Positions 16,171 through 24,318 of a stretch of DNA of 29,362 nt are shown piece by piece. The DNA is taken from NCBI GenBank assembly GCA_964575125.1, contig CAZNQF010000001.1, forward strand, positions 1-29,362, read 5' to 3'. The translations under genes and the position numbers were made by a program. Each line of letters starts with the position of its first letter. The stretch's first letter is position 1. This DNA is from an uncultured bacterium. GTDB taxonomy: Bacteria; Fidelibacterota; Marinisomatia; Marinisomatales; AB-629-J13. The notes below the pieces were generated by a model. That model saw nothing but the letters and a program-made list of their open reading frames with translations, made no database searches and was not told where the DNA came from.

Positions 16171-17496
16171 ATGAGTTTACATCAAATTCAAACAGGAACC
16201 CAAGTAACTATCCGCTCAACAGGAGACAGCGGTTTAATAAAAGAAGTTTTTTATTTCCCAACTATGTACAACGTCGAAATGAAAAATGGAGAGGTTGAAA
16301 AATTTACAACTCATCAAATTGAAATAGACGGAATTCAGAGGGAAAACCCTGGTATAATTGAAGAAGCAAATTTAAACACTCTGGATTCAGGAAAATCTTA
16401 TGACTTAGGCTTGTTTAATGTTAAAACTGTTGTCTGGCAAGAAATCTCGGCACAAAAAACAGAAATATGGAAGCGTTTGATTTCTTTAAAAGATTATCAC
16501 TTATGGTATCCAGGAATTCAGCGGATATTACCATTGAATGATATGGGAAGATATGTTCATCAATATTCATTTGATCAATTTAATCTGAAGCCGGGGAGCC
16601 ATATTAGAACAAGAAGCAATTCACTTCTCCCATTTTTAAATGGTAGAATTGTTGATATTAAAAATGAGGAATTGTTCAGTTTGTCACTAAAAATAAATCC
16701 ACTATTAAATGAATTAGTAAAGTTTGAATTAAACAAAAAAGATGATAAGGTATTATTATCTTGCACCAGATCATACCAAGGGCTATTCTCATTACTTGGT
16801 TATTTAGGGTTTCATAAAAATACATCATTATTATTAAAAGATTTTCAGAATTTATTTTTTCCAAGTATACTTGTGGATGAAATTGTTAAGGAAGAAAAAA
16901 TTGATGAAGATGAAGCCATGCCTAAAATGGATAGAGAAACAACAATTGCATATGGTGTTAATAAAGCTATGACAGGAGATATGGAATTTATCAATTCCAT
17001 TCCAGATAAACCCACAAGAGGTCTTGCAAAAGCTGCACTTGTTAAAGCAAAAAGGACCGGGATTGTACCTCCAATGCCAAAAATAAATCCTGAAAAAATA
17101 TCAAAAACTTTAACAAAGGCCAAATCAAGCTCAAATGGAATTCCAGTGTTTGAAGATGAGCAAGATTTAATTCACTATGCGGTAAACAAAGCACTCGATG
17201 GAGAAATGGACGTGATTAATTCTATTGAAGAAAAGCCTATTCGTGGTAAAGCAAAAGCAATGATGGTAAAATGCAAAAGAACAGGTGAACGTCCACCCAT
17301 GCCTGAAATTAATTTGAAAACTAAATTAAATACTTCAGAAGTAGAAAAAGTAGAACCTGAGGAAGAATTGATAACCCGTTTAGTCGCTGATGGTGTGAAA
17401 GGAATTATGGATGAAATTAATGCTCTTGATAATAGGGTGCTTAGAGGAAAAATTAAAGCATCTATTGTAAGAGAAAAAAGGAAAGGGAATGGATAA
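16171..17496 (+). CDS. Hypothetical modular protein: SH3-like N-domain, START/SRPBCC-like domain and 3 C-terminal repeats
   Basis: 441-aa ORF. The middle region has an SRPBCC-like pattern (EISAQKTEIWKRLISLKDYHLWYPGI). The internal repeats are directly visible. Confidence 0.75.
   Translation: MSLHQIQTGTQVTIRSTGDSGLIKEVFYFPTMYNVEMKNGEVEKFTTHQIEIDGIQRENPGIIEEANLNTLDSGKSYDLGLFNVKTVVWQEISAQKTEIWKRLISLKDYHLWYPGIQRILPLNDMGRYVHQYSFDQFNLKPGSHIRTRSNSLLPFLNGRIVDIKNEELFSLSLKINPLLNELVKFELNKKDDKVLLSCTRSYQGLFSLLGYLGFHKNTSLLLKDFQNLFFPSILVDEIVKEEKIDEDEAMPKMDRETTIAYGVNKAMTGDMEFINSIPDKPTRGLAKAALVKAKRTGIVPPMPKINPEKISKTLTKAKSSSNGIPVFEDEQDLIHYAVNKALDGEMDVINSIEEKPIRGKAKAMMVKCKRTGERPPMPEINLKTKLNTSEVEKVEPEEELITRLVADGVKGIMDEINALDNRVLRGKIKASIVREKRKGNG
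16927..17487 (+). repeat. Three copies of a ~45-55-aa protein repeat (16927-17088, 17149-17313, 17353-17487)
   Basis: TIAYGVNKAMTGDMEFINSIPDKPTRGLAKAALVKAKRTG / LIHYAVNKALDGEMDVINSIEEKPIRGKAKAMMVKCKRTG / LITRLVADGVKGIMDEINALDNRVLRGKIKASIVREKRKG align without gaps. Confidence 0.9.
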
Positions 17497-17527: not shown

Positions 17528-17629
17528 ATGTCAGAGTCAAATCATTATAACCGAATTCAAATCATTTCAATGGTTGCATGCACCATACTTATGATTGGGT
17601 ATATTCTTATTGTTTCTTATGTATTCTAG
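17528..17629 (+). CDS. Putative 33-aa single-TM microprotein (not in ORF track)
   Basis: My translation: MSESNHYNRIQIISMVACTILMIGYILIVSYVF*. One hydrophobic helix; it ends 2 nt before the next ATG. Confidence 0.5.
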   Translation: MSESNHYNRIQIISMVACTILMIGYILIVSYVF

Positions 17630-17631
17630 TA

Positions 17632-17799
17632 ATGTTTGATTGGCTTACAATGCACTGGCTAATGGAAAATTTAGGCTGGATTATCACATGCTTGCTAATC
17701 TCGCTAAGTCTTCTTTTCTTTTTTCCTATTTTACTTGGATTGCAGTTAAAAGATGAGACTCATAAAGAGAATAAAGATAGTTTTAAAAAAAACTCATAG
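17632..17799 (+). CDS. Putative 55-aa single-TM protein
   Basis: MFDWLTMHWLMENLGWIITCLLISLSLLFFFPILLGLQLKDETHKENKDSFKKNS*. TM helix followed by a charged tail. Confidence 0.6.
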   Translation: MFDWLTMHWLMENLGWIITCLLISLSLLFFFPILLGLQLKDETHKENKDSFKKNS

Positions 17800-17871: not shown

Positions 17872-18750
17872 ATGTCTGAAAACTCAAATAGCGTTTCAAC
17901 CTCCAGCAGGGTTTATGTCCTGTTTTATTCATTTTTTCTAATACCCTTAATGGTAGCGGTTATAGGAACTTCATTTTTTATTGTTGTAAAATTTTTAACC
18001 CTTGAGCCAAAAACACCCTCAGATTTGCTAAATGATATAAGAATAGGTTCAGCCACAAAAAGATGGCAATCCGCATTTGAATTATCCAAAATACTTGCTA
18101 ATGATGAAAATGTACATAAGGATAACTTATTCAGAAATCAGCTTGTATCTGCTTATAAAAATTCTGTCCATGATGATGAAAAAGTGAGAATGTATCTTGC
18201 TATGGCAATGGGAAGGTCTGGAGATCTATTTTACGGTAATCCTTTAGTGAAAGGACTGTTAGATAAAAATCCAGCTACACGGTTAGCATCAATCAAAGCT
18301 CTGGGATTCCTAAAATACAAGCCTGCAGTTAGTGAATTAGTCACTATTATTCAAAACAAGAATAGAACTAACATTGAGCACCTTTCAGCGGTTGTATCAT
18401 TAGGTAATATCGGAGATGATGGTATTATTCATGAATTATTACCATTTTTGGAACATGAAGAAGTTAATATTCGTTGGGATACTGCTTTGAGTCTTGCAAA
18501 ATTAGGTGATAAAACAGGTATTACTATCATTGCTGATTTGCTCACGAGATCATATTATGAATCTTTTCCAGAAGTAGATTATGAGGAAGCAAATCAGGCA
18601 ATTAGTGTAGCTATTCAGGTAAGCTCAAAATATAAGGAAGAGATTTTTAAAAATAAATTAATTCAATTAGCCTCAGAAGATGAAAATATGAAAATTAGAG
18701 ATTCAGCAATTAAGACATTAAAATATATTTACGGATATAATAAAGCATGA
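17872..18750 (+). CDS. Membrane-anchored HEAT-repeat protein
   Basis: One N-terminal TM helix, then HEAT-like helical repeats (VRMYLAMAMGR, TRLASIKALG, IRWDTALSLAKLG). ATGA overlap with the Rieske gene. Confidence 0.85.
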   Translation: MSENSNSVSTSSRVYVLFYSFFLIPLMVAVIGTSFFIVVKFLTLEPKTPSDLLNDIRIGSATKRWQSAFELSKILANDENVHKDNLFRNQLVSAYKNSVHDDEKVRMYLAMAMGRSGDLFYGNPLVKGLLDKNPATRLASIKALGFLKYKPAVSELVTIIQNKNRTNIEHLSAVVSLGNIGDDGIIHELLPFLEHEEVNIRWDTALSLAKLGDKTGITIIADLLTRSYYESFPEVDYEEANQAISVAIQVSSKYKEEIFKNKLIQLASEDENMKIRDSAIKTLKYIYGYNKA

Positions 18751-19298
18751 GTGAAGAAAAATTTGTTCCTGAAGCGTCCGTAGGCACTCCACAAAAAAAG
18801 TCATCAGGAGCAACTATTGAGCGGAGGGGGTTTTTTAAATGGTTAAGTATTGGTTGGCTTGCATTTACAGCAGCCACAGGTGGATTTTTTACTGTTTTAA
18901 TTCGATTTTTATTTCCCAATGTTTTGTTTGAACCTCCTCAAAGTTTTAAAATTGGATTACCGGAAGAATTTGAAATTGGGAAAGTTGATTTACGATTCAA
19001 AAAGAAATTTAGTGTTTGGATTGTACGGAATGATGAAGGAATGTATGCTTTATCAACGGTTTGCACCCATTTAGGCTGCACTCCTAATTGGTTAGATAGT
19101 GAACGAAAATTTAAATGCCCATGTCATGGAAGCGGATTCCGTTCAACAGGAATTAATTTTGAGGGACCTGCACCAAGACCTTTAGAAAGATTTAAGATTT
19201 ACTTGGCTGATGACGGGCAAGTAATCGTTGATAAAAGTAAAAATTTCAAATTTGAAAAAGGAGAATGGGAAAGATCAGAATCATTTCTAAAAGTATAA
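18747..19298 (+). CDS. petC: Rieske 2Fe-2S subunit of a Rieske/cytochrome b complex
   Basis: Tat motif ERRGFF, TM anchor, CTHLGC and CPCHGS boxes, GPAPRPL. Confidence 0.96.
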   Translation: MSEEKFVPEASVGTPQKKSSGATIERRGFFKWLSIGWLAFTAATGGFFTVLIRFLFPNVLFEPPQSFKIGLPEEFEIGKVDLRFKKKFSVWIVRNDEGMYALSTVCTHLGCTPNWLDSERKFKCPCHGSGFRSTGINFEGPAPRPLERFKIYLADDGQVIVDKSKNFKFEKGEWERSESFLKV

Positions 19299-19314
19299 AA
19301 AGGTTAAAAAAACT

Positions 19315-20109
19315 GTGAGCCAAAAACAATCAAAACAAACTTTATTAGAACGAATGGGAAATTCCCAAATATGGAAATCCATTATTCGTTCCGGTGTTCC
19401 AAAAACAAGACGCCAAAGAATGCATGCTATATTGGGAAGTGTATTTCTACACCTTCACCCTGCTAGACTGCCAAAACATGCAGTAAAAATTGGTTATACT
19501 TGGTGCATGGGAGGACTTTCATTTTTCCTTTTTGTAGTTTTAACCATTACAGGAATTATGCTGATGTTTTATTATAGACCCACCGTTGAATATGCCTATA
19601 CTGATATGATTGATTTGGGAGAACAGGTTCCTTTGGGAATTATGAGAGAAATACATCGTTGGGGAGCTCATGCTATGGTACTGACGGTTTGGCTCCATAT
19701 GTTACGAGTATTTATGACAGGGTCCTACAAGCCTCCAAGGGAATTTAACTGGGGTGTAGGTGTACTACTCATGACTATAACATTATTTCTGAGTTTTACT
19801 GGATATCTTCTGCCATGGGATCAATTGGCAATTTGGGCGGTTACTGTAGGAACAAACATGGCACGAGCAACACCATTTTTGGGCCATGAAGGTCCAGGAG
19901 CTTCCATGTTGGCTATTGGAGATATCAATTTGGTCCATGCCGGATCAGATGTAAGATTTGCACTCTTAGGGGGACGTTTTGTCGGGGAGGCAACTTTGCT
20001 TAGATTCTATGTATTACATTGTATTGGTGTACCATTTATAGCAATGATATTTATGGCTGTTCACTTTTGGCGAATTAGAAAAGACGGCGGAATCTCAGGA
20101 CCTTTATAA
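19315..20109 (+). CDS. petB: Cytochrome b6-type subunit (split cytochrome b, N-terminal part)
   Basis: WCMGG (heme ci Cys), H-x13-H in helix B, H-x14-H in helix D, PPREFNW, TGYLLPWDQ. 264 aa; GTG start. Confidence 0.95.
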   Translation: MSQKQSKQTLLERMGNSQIWKSIIRSGVPKTRRQRMHAILGSVFLHLHPARLPKHAVKIGYTWCMGGLSFFLFVVLTITGIMLMFYYRPTVEYAYTDMIDLGEQVPLGIMREIHRWGAHAMVLTVWLHMLRVFMTGSYKPPREFNWGVGVLLMTITLFLSFTGYLLPWDQLAIWAVTVGTNMARATPFLGHEGPGASMLAIGDINLVHAGSDVRFALLGGRFVGEATLLRFYVLHCIGVPFIAMIFMAVHFWRIRKDGGISGPL

Positions 20110-20122
20110 TATTATAATTATT

Positions 20123-21241
20123 ATGGAAGCAATTAAACATATAATAGATATTATTTCTGCACCAACGGTAAGCTTTACGTTAATTACGGTACTGTTCCCG
20201 TTCATTTTTCCTCCAGGAGACTGGTTTGAAAAAATCCACAGAAAATTTGGGTTTTGGCGAATATGGACAAAACCCGGTTTATACTTAGGACTTGGTACTA
20301 TTACATTATTTTTTATTATGGGTTATTATGATGAAAATTTTAATATAACTCTCACTAAACCAGATAATTTTCCTATAATTTTATTAGTATACTCAGTTTT
20401 CATTTATACTTGGATATCTATGTACAAAGCATATGAAAATGATGAACGAATGGGTCGGGGGGAGAAACCAAACGAATATAATGATCCTGATGATAAAGTG
20501 TTGGTTTGGCCTGACCTTGTTTATATTGAATTTATAGCTTTAATCATATTTATGGTTTTCTTAATTGTATGGTCAGTCTTGGTTGCTGCACCATTGGAAG
20601 AACCTGCAAATCCTGCAGCAACACCCAATCCTTCTAAAGCTCCATGGTATTTTCTTGGATTACAGGAAATGCTAGTTTATTTTGACCCATGGCTAGCAGG
20701 TGTTGTGTTTCCAGGGTTAATAATTATAGGATTAATGGCAATTCCATATATGAGTACCACATCTGATAAATTATCAGGATTTTATTCTTTTAAAGAAAGA
20801 CGATTAGGAATATTTTTATTTCAGTACGGGTTTCTGATACTTTGGATATTTTTAATATTTATTGGAACATTTTTCAGAGGTCCAAATTGGAATTTTTTCG
20901 GCCCTTTTGAATATTGGGATCCACACAAAGTGGTCCCCTTAACCAATGTAAATCTATCAGAGTATTTTTGGATTAAATGGTTGGGAACGGGGCTTCCATC
21001 AAACATAATGCTCAGAGAATCTTTAGGGTTTTTAACGGTGATAATTTATTTTGTTTCTCTACCTGTTTTACTTGCATAATATTCATTGAAAAACTTTTTA
21101 AATAGAGTGGGACCAGTAAAGTTTTCTTTTTTTGTTTTTTTAGGACTTTGTATGCTATCTCTCCCCTTAAAAATGTACCTTCGATGGATGTTTAATTTGC
21201 AATACATCGTTGCAATCCCTGAATGGTTTTTTAATATTTAA
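20123..21241 (+). pseudogene. petD: Cytochrome b subunit IV (PetD/QcrC-like, extended) interrupted by an in-frame TAA at 21077-21079
   Basis: VWPDL, PLEEPANP..TPNPSKAPWYFLGLQE. After the TAA the same frame continues for 53 codons (YSLKNFLNRVGPVKFSFFVFLGLCMLSLPLKMYLRWMFNLQYIVAIPEWFFNI) to a TAA at 21239-21241. It may be an intact gene with a sequence error. Confidence 0.8.
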
Positions 21242-21258
21242 ATTTCTTAAACTAATAA

Positions 21259-24200
21259 ATGTTTAATAAAAAAGACGAACGCTATTGGGACATCCATTTA
21301 TTAAATAAATGGTTTGCTATTACAAGCATCCTGTTTGTCATTTCTATGGTTTGGATGTTTATTGATGATAATGATGATGATTTTAAACAATATCAAAAAA
21401 CATTTAGGCAAATGGAAGTAGAAATTTCCAAGAAAAAATTAAACGAAGCAGTTGAACATGTAAAAGAAGAACAAAAAATATATGCTGAAAGACTAAAAAC
21501 AGTAAAATTAGATTTTGAAAATAAGAAAGAAAGAATAATTTTATTAAATGATAAAACAACTGAATTAAATGCCCAACATTACAAGGCAAACATGGATTAT
21601 CTCCACCTAAAAGCTGAAATTGATGCTTTAAAATATTTGGTTGAAAAAGAAAAAACTCATATTAACGAGCTGCCCAAAGAGAAAGATTCAAAATATGAAA
21701 TGGAGTATAATTCATATCTTATTGATTTGCAGGAATTAAAATTAAAGAAAGAAAAAATTGAATTACTTCAAAAAGGAGTTGAAGAAGAAATAACTCAACT
21801 AAATAAGGATGTAAAAAAAGCTGAAGATGAATTAAAAAATGTTATGAAAGATACTGACTTAGTAGAAGCAAAACTTTCTCGACTTGACCGACAAAGAATG
21901 TCCTTTTCTAACCGTATTGGCGATATTATTAGAGATTTCCCTGTTTTAGACTTTATGGACCCATATTATAAAGTAAAACAAATTGTAGTACCTGATGTAA
22001 AATATGATGTTAATTTTGCTTCAGTTTCAACAGTAGATCGCTGTACAAGTTGTCATCTAGGTATTGATAATCCAGATTATGTAGATGCTCCTCATCCATA
22101 TAAAACTCACCCTAATTTAAATCTTTATTTAACAGCACCTTCCCCTCATCCAATCGATCAATTTGGATGTACAGGTTGTCATGCGGGAAGAAGCAGAGGA
22201 ACAACTTTTAACTCTTCTGTCCATATGCCAAACTCCAAAGCTGCAAAGCAAAATTGGGAAGAAGAATATGATTGGGAAAAAATGCATCATTGGCTCAAGC
22301 CAATGCTCCCTTCAAAATACTCTGAAGCAAGTTGTTTTAAATGTCATATGGAAAAGCCAGACCTTAAAGGTGGTGAAAAACTAAATCTTGGGCTAACTAT
22401 TATAGACAAGGCTGGATGTAATGGTTGCCACCAAATTGAATCCTATCCAAAAAGGTATAATACAGGACCAGATTTAACTCGCATAAATGAAAAAGTTTCA
22501 AAGGAGTGGACAAAGAAATGGATCAGCCATCCCCAAAGTTTCCGATACAATACATGGATGCCTCACTTTTTTAATCAAGAAAACAATTCATCACCGGAAA
22601 TGGATAGGCGGAACACCACTGAAATTAATGCTATTGTAGAGTTTTTATTTAAAGACAAAGAGAACAACAATAACATATCATCTGACATTCTATATCTAGG
22701 TAATCCTAAAACTGGAGAAACATTGTTTAACAATGTTGGCTGTAAGGGATGTCATAACCTCCAAGAAAACTCCACAGAACTGGCAGATCTTGGTTATGAT
22801 TTAGAAAAATTACCCTACGAATTCTCAAAGTCAGAATTTGGATACGAACAAGAAAGAACAAATCTAGCGGAAATAACCAAACAACAAGGGCCAAATCTCA
22901 TTGGTCTAGGTTCAAAGACCTCACCAGAATGGGTATATAACTGGATAAAAAATCCCCAAGATTATTGGTCTAAAACAAGGATGCCAAATCTCAGGCTATC
23001 TAATCAAGAAGCAAAAGATATAACAGCTTATCTCCTCTCGTTTAAAAATGATGATTTTGAAAATAAAGTATTCCCTGAGCTAGATGAAAAAGAATTGGAA
23101 GATATTGCTCGGGGATGGCTAATAAAATCCTTTCCTGAAGAAAAAGCCTACCAAAAGCTATCTGAAATGGAATACACTGAAAAGGTTAATTATGTTGCAG
23201 ATAAAAGTATTCGTTTTTATGGATGTTATTCCTGCCATAATATCGATGGATATGAAAATGAAAAACCAATAGGAACTGCCTTAACTTCTGAAGGCTCAAA
23301 ATCTGTGGACAAATTGGATTTTGGTCATATCCACGATATTGAGCATTTGAATTATTCATGGTTTGAGCAAAAGCTTGCAAATCCAAGAATATTTGATAGG
23401 CATAAAATTATAGCCAAAGAAGAAAAACTACGCATGCCCAATTTCTATTTGAAACCTGAAGAAATAGAAGCAGTAGTTACAGCTCTGCTATCATTCAATG
23501 ATGATAAAGTAGGCGAACCTAAACAGGCCAGTTTTTATCAGGAAAATCACTCTGTATATGAAGGTTATAAGCTACTGAATCAATTTAATTGCCGAGGATG
23601 TCATATAATTGATGGTGTCGGAGGACAAATTGCCGATGTCATCGGTTCTTCAGAATTTTCTCCTCCAAATTTGAACACTGAAGGCGAGAAGGTTCAACCA
23701 TCTTGGTTGTTTAATTTTCTAAAAGAACCCACATTGATCAGGCCTAATCTTGAGGTCAGGATGCCGACCTTCAGCCTAAAAGATGAAGATTGGAACCATA
23801 TTATCAATGCTTTCCAGGATATGGATGGAAATAATTTAGCATTTGAATCAGATCATATTGTGAATAAAAATACCAATAAATATAAGGCAGGCGAAAAACT
23901 ACAGGACTTAGGGGTATGTTCAAATTGCCATTTCTATGGGACCACTTTTCCAAAGCAAGGAGCAGAAACTTGGGCTCCCAATTTAGCACTGTCAAAGGAT
24001 AGACTTCGCCCAGAATGGATAGTGAAATGGTTGGATGACCCTCAATCCATAATGCCAGGTACAAAAATGCCAGCACCATATATCCCATCGAAAGAAGAAC
24101 TGAATATGCCGGACTCAAAGTCTGTGTGGGGTGTGAATTTGATATCTTTAAAAGGTAACAGAGAACTCATGCTAGAGGGTTTGAGAGATTTTAATTTATC

Positions 24201-24318
24201 TATATCTGGGAAAAAAGATATTTCAAAAGAAGTAAAAGCTTATTTTGACAAAAATGGATATGATTTTAATAAAGAAGAGGAAGGAGATGAAGATGATTGG
24301 GATGATGAGGACTGGTAG
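21259..24318 (+). CDS. Membrane-anchored octaheme cytochrome c
   Basis: Eight CxxCH motifs: CTSCH, CTGCH, CFKCH, CNGCH, CKGCH, CYSCH, CRGCH, CSNCH. N-terminal TM anchor, long coiled coil and acidic tail. Confidence 0.93.
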   Translation: MFNKKDERYWDIHLLNKWFAITSILFVISMVWMFIDDNDDDFKQYQKTFRQMEVEISKKKLNEAVEHVKEEQKIYAERLKTVKLDFENKKERIILLNDKTTELNAQHYKANMDYLHLKAEIDALKYLVEKEKTHINELPKEKDSKYEMEYNSYLIDLQELKLKKEKIELLQKGVEEEITQLNKDVKKAEDELKNVMKDTDLVEAKLSRLDRQRMSFSNRIGDIIRDFPVLDFMDPYYKVKQIVVPDVKYDVNFASVSTVDRCTSCHLGIDNPDYVDAPHPYKTHPNLNLYLTAPSPHPIDQFGCTGCHAGRSRGTTFNSSVHMPNSKAAKQNWEEEYDWEKMHHWLKPMLPSKYSEASCFKCHMEKPDLKGGEKLNLGLTIIDKAGCNGCHQIESYPKRYNTGPDLTRINEKVSKEWTKKWISHPQSFRYNTWMPHFFNQENNSSPEMDRRNTTEINAIVEFLFKDKENNNNISSDILYLGNPKTGETLFNNVGCKGCHNLQENSTELADLGYDLEKLPYEFSKSEFGYEQERTNLAEITKQQGPNLIGLGSKTSPEWVYNWIKNPQDYWSKTRMPNLRLSNQEAKDITAYLLSFKNDDFENKVFPELDEKELEDIARGWLIKSFPEEKAYQKLSEMEYTEKVNYVADKSIRFYGCYSCHNIDGYENEKPIGTALTSEGSKSVDKLDFGHIHDIEHLNYSWFEQKLANPRIFDRHKIIAKEEKLRMPNFYLKPEEIEAVVTALLSFNDDKVGEPKQASFYQENHSVYEGYKLLNQFNCRGCHIIDGVGGQIADVIGSSEFSPPNLNTEGEKVQPSWLFNFLKEPTLIRPNLEVRMPTFSLKDEDWNHIINAFQDMDGNNLAFESDHIVNKNTNKYKAGEKLQDLGVCSNCHFYGTTFPKQGAETWAPNLALSKDRLRPEWIVKWLDDPQSIMPGTKMPAPYIPSKEELNMPDSKSVWGVNLISLKGNRELMLEGLRDFNLSISGKKDISKEVKAYFDKNGYDFNKEEEGDEDDWDDEDW

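What the first reader, a model, noticed from the sequence alone, without database searches (positions are those of the whole stretch)
16171..17496. 441-aa protein with three copies of an unrecognised helical repeat, upstream of the Rieske/cyt b locus
The architecture is a small SH3-like barrel, an SRPBCC/START-like ligand-pocket domain and three repeats. The repeat consensus is I-x3-V-x2-[AG]-x2-G-x-M-[ED]-x-I-N-x-[IL]-x2-[KR]-x2-R-G-[KL]-[AI]-K-A-x2-V-x2-K-R-x-G, and the first two copies end in PPMPxIN linkers. I know no named family for this repeat. The invariant G-x-M-x2-IN and RG-x-x-KA...KR-x-G residues suggest a folded binding module with a basic face. START/SRPBCC proteins bind lipids or quinones (e.g. 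Coq10), so a quinone or lipid chaperone for the downstream complex is a testable guess.
Basis: partly seen in the sequence, partly recalled or inferred. Interest (0 to 1): 0.75.

Follow-up and report, generated by a model that had tools for sequence, protein, structure and literature searches.

The report
Respiratory-linked SRPBCC protein, new helical module
A marine Marinimicrobia (SAR406) gene just upstream of an unusual cytochrome b operon encodes a soluble protein made of a small beta-barrel, a lipid/quinone-type pocket domain and three copies of an unclassified 45-residue helical module; relatives also attach that module to two subunits of respiratory complex I, so it looks like a new accessory part of this phylum's respiratory chain.

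Summary
ORF 16171-17496 (+) encodes 441 aa. It has a predicted five-stranded barrel (aa 11-52), a confirmed SRPBCC/START helix-grip domain (aa 73-229) and three real repeats (aa 254-298, 329-373, 396-439). Each repeat is a confident helix / short helix / long basic helix unit. No Pfam, NCBIfam or PDB family matches the repeat.

The main new result is that the module is not private to this protein. In the same order it sits at the N-terminus of NuoC. In class-level relatives, degenerate copies extend the C-terminus of NuoI. All these nuo operons lack nuoEFG.

Placement upstream of the Rieske/cyt b operon is conserved in 8 of 21 loci (two families). These are exactly the loci whose protein keeps the barrel. 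In the other 13 loci the gene has no respiratory neighbours.

My best reading is a cytoplasmic, tethered hydrophobic-ligand (probably quinone) carrier that works like CoxG or COQ10, with the repeats as a respiratory-chain docking or tethering module. What the module binds is not known.

The scan met an orthologue before on other DNA (e1-2079500) and reached the same reading. My tests were run independently and agree with it.

It is a new variant of a known kind, of moderate to high interest.

The parts
16171..17496 (+). Whole ORF, 441 aa. Cytoplasmic by sequence: no signal peptide and no TM segment.
   Evidence: single copy in the genome
16192..16332 (+). N-terminal small five-stranded beta-barrel (aa 8-54)
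   Evidence: AF2 strands 11-14, 20-28, 32-37, 42-46 and 50-52, pLDDT 83-90. Fused only in families f1 and f4. Free-standing 60-63-aa ORFs in f15.
16387..16857 (+). SRPBCC/START helix-grip domain (aa 73-229)
   Evidence: Foldseek PDB probability 1.0 (3ijt TM 0.80, PYR/PYL, CalU16). AFDB SRPBCC/COQ10 clusters. Swiss-Prot top hit COQ10. Of 32 family members, 17 weakly hit AHSA1, 13 Polyketide_cyc2 and 9 Polyketide_cyc.
16930..17064 (+). Helical module copy 1 (aa 254-298)
17065..17088 (+). Pro-rich tail VPPMPKIN after copy 1, then a disordered linker
17155..17289 (+). Helical module copy 2 (aa 329-373)
17290..17313 (+). Pro-rich tail RPPMPEIN after copy 2, then a disordered linker
17356..17487 (+). 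Helical module copy 3 (aa 396-439), the C-terminal type
   Evidence: 'Last' copies form one clade with 100/97 support.
17528..17799 (+). Two conserved single-TM micro-ORFs (33 and 55 aa) that fill the gap to the HEAT gene. The first begins 31 nt after the stop of this ORF.
   Evidence: tblastn finds both in all 7 syntenic relatives (55-aa ORF 50-59% identity, E 1e-12 to 1e-16) and in G006. Not found upstream of the operon in G186 or G063.
17872..24318 (+). Downstream operon: HEAT-repeat membrane protein, Rieske, cytochrome b, subunit IV, multihaem cytochrome c
   Evidence: Pfam; same order and strand in 8 of 21 loci

Best explanation
The gene encodes a cytoplasmic accessory protein of the respiratory chain, restricted to one order of Marinimicrobia/Fidelibacterota. 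The SRPBCC pocket domain most likely carries a hydrophobic ligand, with a respiratory quinone as the best guess. The three helical modules sit on disordered Pro-rich linkers. I read them as tethers that hold the pocket domain at the cytoplasmic face of the respiratory membrane or at respiratory complexes. This is functionally like CoxG, where an SRPBCC domain on a flexible linker is held by a membrane anchor and ferries menaquinone. Shown here: the domain architecture, the fold of the pocket domain, the reality and independent folding of the module, its presence on NuoC and NuoI of NuoEFG-less complex I, and conserved placement ahead of the Rieske/cyt b operon in two families. Inferred: that the ligand is a quinone, that the module is a tether, and what it binds (membrane surface, a shared protein partner or itself).
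For: (1) SRPBCC fold: Foldseek probability 1.0 with TM up to 0.80. COQ10 is the best reviewed hit and recurs among the top 30. Relatives weakly hit the AHSA1, Polyketide_cyc2 and Polyketide_cyc models. (2) The module folds alone at pLDDT 95. It is the best conserved part of the protein, with mean pairwise identity 0.54-0.64 against 0.47 for the SRPBCC domain. (3) Rosetta-stone evidence: the same module is the N-terminus of NuoC (P0225, P0179; in situ nuoA-B-C-D-H-I-J-K-L-M-N in G186 and G063). Related copies extend NuoI (P0205; G161 nuoI 586 aa with 5 copies; G180 with 2). The ESM Atlas independently returns a Fidelibacterota NuoC cluster at TM 0.92. (4) One NuoC type nests inside the 'middle repeat' clade of this protein family (100/96 support), so the module has been exchanged between the two contexts. 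(5) Synteny: target, two micro-ORFs, HEAT, Rieske, cyt b, subunit IV and multihaem cytochrome lie on one strand in 8 of 21 loci. Upstream neighbours differ between these loci (rpiB against ctaA). No terminator-like site lies between the target and the HEAT start, and the gap to the first micro-ORF is 31 nt. (6) 26 of 28 genomes with the protein also hold the orthologous cyt b, against about 20 of 173 without it; kinship confounds this count. (7) Precedent: CoxG (PMC12202499, PMC13525633).
Against: In 13 of 21 loci (families f5, f6, f9, f10) the gene has no respiratory neighbour. There it lies convergent to hydrolase, DHFR and M16 peptidase genes. The Rieske/cyt b/HEAT operon occurs in many genomes without this protein (f12, f15, f16, f18, f19, f20), so it is not an obligatory subunit. 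The window's own NuoC and NuoI carry no module. The SRPBCC fold does not tell the ligand: PYR/PYL, Bet v 1 and cyclases score as well as COQ10. The family keeps many invariant polar residues (Arg, His, Tyr, Glu), which could point to an enzyme or a polar ligand. The repeats carry little net charge, which weakens simple electrostatic binding to membranes. There is no biochemical evidence at all.
Confidence: 0.5

Rival explanations
1. The helical module is a docking site for a soluble acidic electron carrier (ferredoxin or flavodoxin) that feeds the NuoEFG-less complex I. On NuoI and NuoC it would act as a capture antenna beside the terminal Fe-S cluster. The free protein would be a soluble scaffold or regulator of the same carrier.
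For: The nuo operons with the module lack nuoEFG. Marinimicrobia are reported to hold such a non-canonical NDH with a suspected flavodoxin-type donor (PMC6143742). In cyanobacterial NDH-1, lineage-specific accessory subunits surround NdhI and shape the ferredoxin pocket (PMC6992706). Helix 3 keeps a conserved basic stripe (invariant R30 and K34). Arrays of 2-5 copies on long linkers fit capture by avidity.
Against: It does not explain the SRPBCC domain or the placement ahead of a quinol-oxidising complex. Whole modules are nearly neutral. No carrier gene is a conserved neighbour.
Confidence: 0.15
2. The protein has no dedicated respiratory role. It is an SRPBCC enzyme, sensor or stress protein, and its repeats serve general protein, nucleic-acid or self association. 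Adjacency to the Rieske operon is then a clade-specific accident.
For: Most loci (13 of 21) show no respiratory neighbours. The SRPBCC domain keeps many invariant polar residues. SRPBCC members include cyclases and AHSA1-type proteins, the models most relatives touch.
Against: The module occurs elsewhere only on NuoC and NuoI, apart from a few apparent assembly chimeras. Adjacency survived rearrangement of the upstream side in two families. The gene is near-universal in cyt b-bearing genomes of its order.
Confidence: 0.2
3. The modules bind one another in trans. They would link the pocket protein to module-bearing complex I and cluster respiratory components, in the way quinone-handling assemblies such as Ndh-Ncp filaments do.
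For: Each module has an acidic first half and a basic third helix. The copies are multivalent and sit on flexible linkers. The module is shared by NuoC, NuoI and this protein. A quinone-carrying assembly exists in Bacillota (PMC13524794).
Against: AF2 does not pack the three copies together (pTM 0.42, linkers below pLDDT 50). In this genome only this protein carries the module, so there is no partner on complex I.
Confidence: 0.1

Closest known systems
CoxG (SRPBCC subunit of Mo-CO dehydrogenase systems; PMC12202499, reviewed in PMC13525633)
   Same: An SRPBCC pocket domain, then a flexible linker, then a C-terminal element that could hold it near the respiratory membrane. It is genetically tied to a redox complex.
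   Different: No match to the CoxG model and no TM anchor. Three soluble helical modules take the anchor's place. The neighbours are a Rieske/cyt b operon, not coxLMS. Quinone binding is untested.
COQ10 / PasT (RatA) quinone-binding START proteins (Pfam PF03364)
   Same: Helix-grip fold. COQ10 is the best reviewed structural hit. An ESM Atlas cluster of the family is auto-named COQ10-START.
   Different: The window's protein does not reach any Pfam SRPBCC model. Only 9 of 32 relatives touch PF03364 weakly. COQ10 proteins are single-domain.
Lineage-specific accessory subunits of NuoEFG-less complex I (cyanobacterial NdhS, NdhV, NdhO, NdhN; PMC6992706)
   Same: Small clade-restricted additions to the hydrophilic arm of an 11-subunit complex I, placed on or around NuoI/NuoC homologues.
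   Different: No sequence or tested fold similarity. Here the addition is a fused, repeated helical module on long linkers, and it also occurs in a separate SRPBCC protein.

Membership tests
SRPBCC / START superfamily | Helix-grip fold: antiparallel sheet wrapped around a long C-terminal helix | tested here: met
   The AF2 model has 7 strands plus helices 96-112 and 207-229. Foldseek probability 1.0, TM by target up to 0.80.
SRPBCC / START superfamily | Sequence match to a clan model (AHSA1, Polyketide_cyc, Polyketide_cyc2) | tested here: inconclusive
   The window's own protein has no hit at E<=10. Among 32 relatives, 17, 13 and 9 hit weakly (best 1.3e-7), mostly under the curated cut-offs.
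SRPBCC / START superfamily | Enclosed hydrophobic ligand cavity | not tested
   Model coordinates could not be analysed with the tools at hand.
COQ10 / PasT quinone-binding proteins | Membership of PF03364 above threshold | tested here: not met
   No hit for the window's protein. 9 of 32 relatives hit weakly.
COQ10 / PasT quinone-binding proteins | Binds ubiquinone or menaquinone | not testable with these tools
   Needs protein purification and lipid mass spectrometry.
CoxG | CoxG (PF06240) model match, C-terminal TM anchor, cox gene neighbourhood | tested here: not met
   No such Pfam hit. No TM segment in the sequence. The neighbours are pentose-phosphate and Rieske/cyt b genes.
SH3-like small barrels | Five-stranded partly open barrel with SH3 topology | tested here: inconclusive
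   Five strands are predicted at pLDDT 83-90. The domain was not folded or searched alone. A profile search of PDB sequences found nothing.
Any described family for the 45-aa module (Pfam incl. DUF5681 and PCP_red, NCBIfam, PDB) | Significant sequence or fold match | tested here: not met
   Pfam and NCBIfam give nothing. Among 34 units, only 2 touch DUF5681 at E 0.014 and none touch PCP_red. The PDB profile search gives nothing. Foldseek gives E>3. VIA-align gives Z<=5.2, inside the noise for helical models, so the fold test by itself is inconclusive.

The most novel reading that the evidence does not exclude
The 45-residue module is a phylum-specific docking domain of the respiratory chain. 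It would physically connect a quinone-carrying SRPBCC protein, the NuoEFG-less complex I and (through the barrel-bearing form) the octahaem Rieske/cyt b complex. Alternatively, it recruits the still unknown electron donor of 11-subunit complex I. Either way it gives an experimental handle on how NuoEFG-less complex I is fed or wired.
Probability: 0.15. Interest if true: 0.8.

Novelty: new variant of a known kind. Interest (0 to 1): 0.55.

Why it matters
Marinimicrobia (SAR406) are abundant in the dark ocean and oxygen-minimum zones, and they are uncultured. Their respiratory chain combines a complex I without its NADH module and an uncharacterised octahaem Rieske/cyt b complex. A clade-specific module shared by complex I subunits and a pocket protein next to the cyt b operon gives a concrete lead. 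It can be tested with recombinant protein. The questions it opens are how quinones or electron donors are handled at these complexes, and what feeds 11-subunit complex I, which is a long-standing open question. It also defines a new, well-folding 45-residue domain family for the databases.

Tried and rejected
1. Complex prediction with the genome's own NuoC, NuoD and NuoI plus aa 325-441 of the protein returned 'no answer' (score 0.00, controls not run). This is no evidence either way.

2. I considered the HEAT-repeat neighbour as receptor for the basic helix, then dropped the idea. In 8 orthologues the flank before the single TM helix is basic and the flank after it is acidic. The HEAT domain is therefore probably periplasmic, while this protein, NuoC and NuoI are cytoplasmic. 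G161 also has module-bearing NuoI but no HEAT gene.

3. My recalled resemblance to the PCP_red (ChlB C-terminal) domain found no support: no unit hit it at E<=10. The DUF5681 hit in P0013 is sub-threshold and isolated.

4. The protein-atlas search by features on aa 325-441 gave no usable hit.

5. Most 'stand-alone barrel' proteins of 97-148 aa from the representative search are gene fragments or chimeras. Only the 60-63-aa ORFs in f15 genomes are convincing.

6. RNA libraries: short contigs about 99% identical (2 differences each) cover 16830-17060 and 17120-17303 in one marine metatranscriptome. Others cover the HEAT gene. None bridges the two genes, shares are small (0.07) and DNA carry-over is not excluded. 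This is only a weak hint of expression.

7. The sigma-70 promoter scan was uninformative: 16 sites against 10.9 expected.

Full report
OBSERVATION. The ORF at 16171-17496 (+) is open and encodes 441 aa. The internal repeats are far beyond chance. Copy 1 against copy 2 is 60% identical over 53 aa (E 2e-21). Copy 2 against copy 3 is 41% identical over 46 aa (E 4e-10). A profile built from 34 diverse units (A2) finds three hits in the whole 1.96-Mb genome, all inside this ORF. A 99%-identical protein from an independent cluster covers aa 125-441 with the same three copies, so the count is not an assembly artefact.

STRUCTURE. AlphaFold2 on a 66-sequence alignment gives mean pLDDT 82.
- A five-stranded barrel lies at aa 11-52.
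- A seven-stranded alpha/beta domain with terminal helices lies at aa 73-229.
- Three units follow, each a 13-residue helix, a 4-residue helix and a 17-residue helix, all above pLDDT 90 and joined by linkers below 50.

The low pTM (0.42) says the domains are beads on a string. The middle domain is an SRPBCC helix-grip fold. Foldseek gives probability 1.0 to SMU.440 (TM 0.80), CalU16, PYR/PYL receptors and a bacterial START domain. It also hits SRPBCC/COQ10 clusters in AFDB. COQ10 is the best reviewed hit and recurs through the top 30. The window's own sequence reaches no Pfam model. Among 32 relatives, 17 touch AHSA1, 13 Polyketide_cyc2 and 9 Polyketide_cyc.

A single repeat folds alone at pLDDT 95. 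It has no convincing match in Pfam, NCBIfam, PDB sequences, Foldseek/PDB or VIA-align. Its only close shapes in the ESM Atlas are this same family and a Fidelibacterota NuoC cluster.

DISTRIBUTION. All named homologues are 'Candidatus Marinimicrobia' hypothetical proteins. Among 1.84 billion representatives only 136 match, many of them fragments. In a 200-genome sample of the phylum the full protein occurs in six families of one order (28 genomes). Relatives carry three or four copies. The same-genus genome G184 has four. A tree of units shows positional orthology: 'first' copies form a clade (97/99) and 'last' copies form a clade (100/97). Extra copies are recent duplicates of the middle unit. 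The repeats are the best conserved parts of the protein.

THE KEY FINDING. The module is shared with complex I. Hits outside the family include NuoC proteins with one or two N-terminal copies (P0225, P0179) and NuoI-type 2x[4Fe-4S] proteins with C-terminal copies (P0205, P0231). I checked this in genomes.
- G186 and G063 have nuoA-B-C(233 aa, module first)-D-H-I-J-K-L-M-N, followed by nqrA-F.
- In class-level relatives nuoI is 586 aa with five degenerate copies (G161), or 419 aa with two (G180).

None of these operons has nuoEFG, and neither does the window's own operon, whose NuoC and NuoI lack the module. One NuoC type nests inside the middle-repeat clade of this protein family (100/96). The module has therefore moved between the two contexts. 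Published work already notes a non-canonical NDH without NADH-oxidising subunits in most Marinimicrobia, with flavodoxin suggested as donor (PMC6143742).

NEIGHBOURHOOD. In 8 of 21 loci (families f1 and f4) the order is target, HEAT, Rieske, cyt b, subunit IV, multihaem cytochrome, all on one strand. The upstream gene differs between them: rpiB in f1 and divergent ctaA in f4. The 376-nt 'gap' after the ORF holds two single-TM micro-ORFs that are conserved in all seven syntenic relatives. The first begins 31 nt after the stop. No terminator-like site lies before the HEAT start.

In the other 13 loci the gene lies convergent to hydrolase, DHFR and M16 peptidase genes, and the protein lacks the barrel. 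Barrel and adjacency thus coincide, 8 of 8 against 0 of 13. A barrel profile finds it only in f1 and f4 (fused) and in f15 (free 60-63-aa ORFs), with a weak hit in f18. The f15 operon checked (G006) also carries the micro-ORFs, while the operons checked in G186 and G063 do not.

The orthologous cyt b and its HEAT partner always travel together. They are more widespread than this protein. 26 of 28 genomes with the protein have that cyt b, but kinship confounds this count.

MECHANISM. What is shown: a cytoplasmic protein with an SRPBCC pocket and three copies of an independently folding module, and that module is otherwise found only on peripheral-arm subunits of complex I. What I infer: the protein is a tethered carrier of a hydrophobic ligand, most likely a quinone, and works like CoxG. 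In CoxG an SRPBCC domain on a linker, anchored at the membrane, ferries menaquinone to a redox enzyme (PMC12202499, PMC13525633). Here the modules would replace the anchor. What the module binds is open.
- Near-neutral net charge argues against plain electrostatic membrane binding.
- Long linkers and 2-5 copies argue for avidity towards something abundant or for capture of a soluble partner.
- High conservation argues for a specific partner.

Rival readings are carrier docking for NuoEFG-less complex I, by analogy with accessory subunits around NdhI (PMC6992706), then self-association, then a non-respiratory role. They are scored separately above.

COMPARISON AND NOVELTY. The pocket domain belongs to a known superfamily. 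The module is an undescribed domain family. The architecture and the NuoC and NuoI fusions are not in the papers I could search. The scan had already met an orthologous 437-aa protein in another genome and reached the same reading (e1-2079500). I saw that note only after my own tests, and they agree with it.
- the repeat tree with module exchange;
- the coincidence of barrel, micro-ORFs and synteny;
- the probable periplasmic side of the HEAT domain;
- the three- versus four-copy polymorphism.

Verdict: a real feature, a new variant of a known kind, with the mechanism only inferred.

Noticed in passing
window 17528-17799: The two single-TM micro-ORFs (33 and 55 aa) between this gene and the HEAT gene are conserved at protein level in all 7 syntenic relatives and in G006 (f15). 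They were not found ahead of the operon in G186 or G063 (f6).
   Followed up: partly
window 20123-21241: Subunit IV is 318 aa here, but the orthologous ORF is 372-373 aa in all 7 syntenic relatives.
   Followed up: partly
L092 (G000:C23:8796-16758): The genome's own nuo operon runs nuoA-B-C-D-H-I-J-K-L with no nuoEFG. Its NuoC (164 aa) and NuoI (193 aa) carry no helical module.
   Followed up: yes
L085:7671-9431 (G161) and L084:3777-4478 (G186): NuoI of 586 aa has five degenerate module copies after the 2x[4Fe-4S] core. NuoC of 233 aa has one module and a roughly 50-aa low-complexity linker before the 30-kDa domain. In G186 and G161 the nuo operon is followed directly by what look like nqrA-F genes, judged from ORF sizes and N-termini only (no family scan was run).
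   Followed up: partly
L090:1162-1344 and L091:7325-7510: Free-standing 60-61-aa barrel ORFs in f15 genomes lie at the end of a same-strand run of CxxCH cytochrome genes and a DUF2231 membrane protein. In G006 and G198 the barrel ORF instead lies among small membrane proteins.
   Followed up: no
P0182, P0217, P0199, P0211: Metagenome proteins join a GroEL fragment, a TrcR/formyltransferase fragment or a signal-peptide protein to part of this family (P0182, P0199 and P0211 to the last module type; P0217 to the barrel/SRPBCC region). They are probably assembly or gene-calling chimeras.
   Followed up: no
L035 (G184:C10) versus window 17155-17289: The same-genus orthologue has four modules (509 aa) against three here. 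In P0027 and P0020 the two middle copies are identical in protein sequence, so copy number changes by recent tandem duplication or loss.
   Followed up: partly
L037, L039, L040, L042, L047, L048: In family f4 the gene is preceded, divergently, by a COX15/CtaA haem A synthase gene.
   Followed up: no
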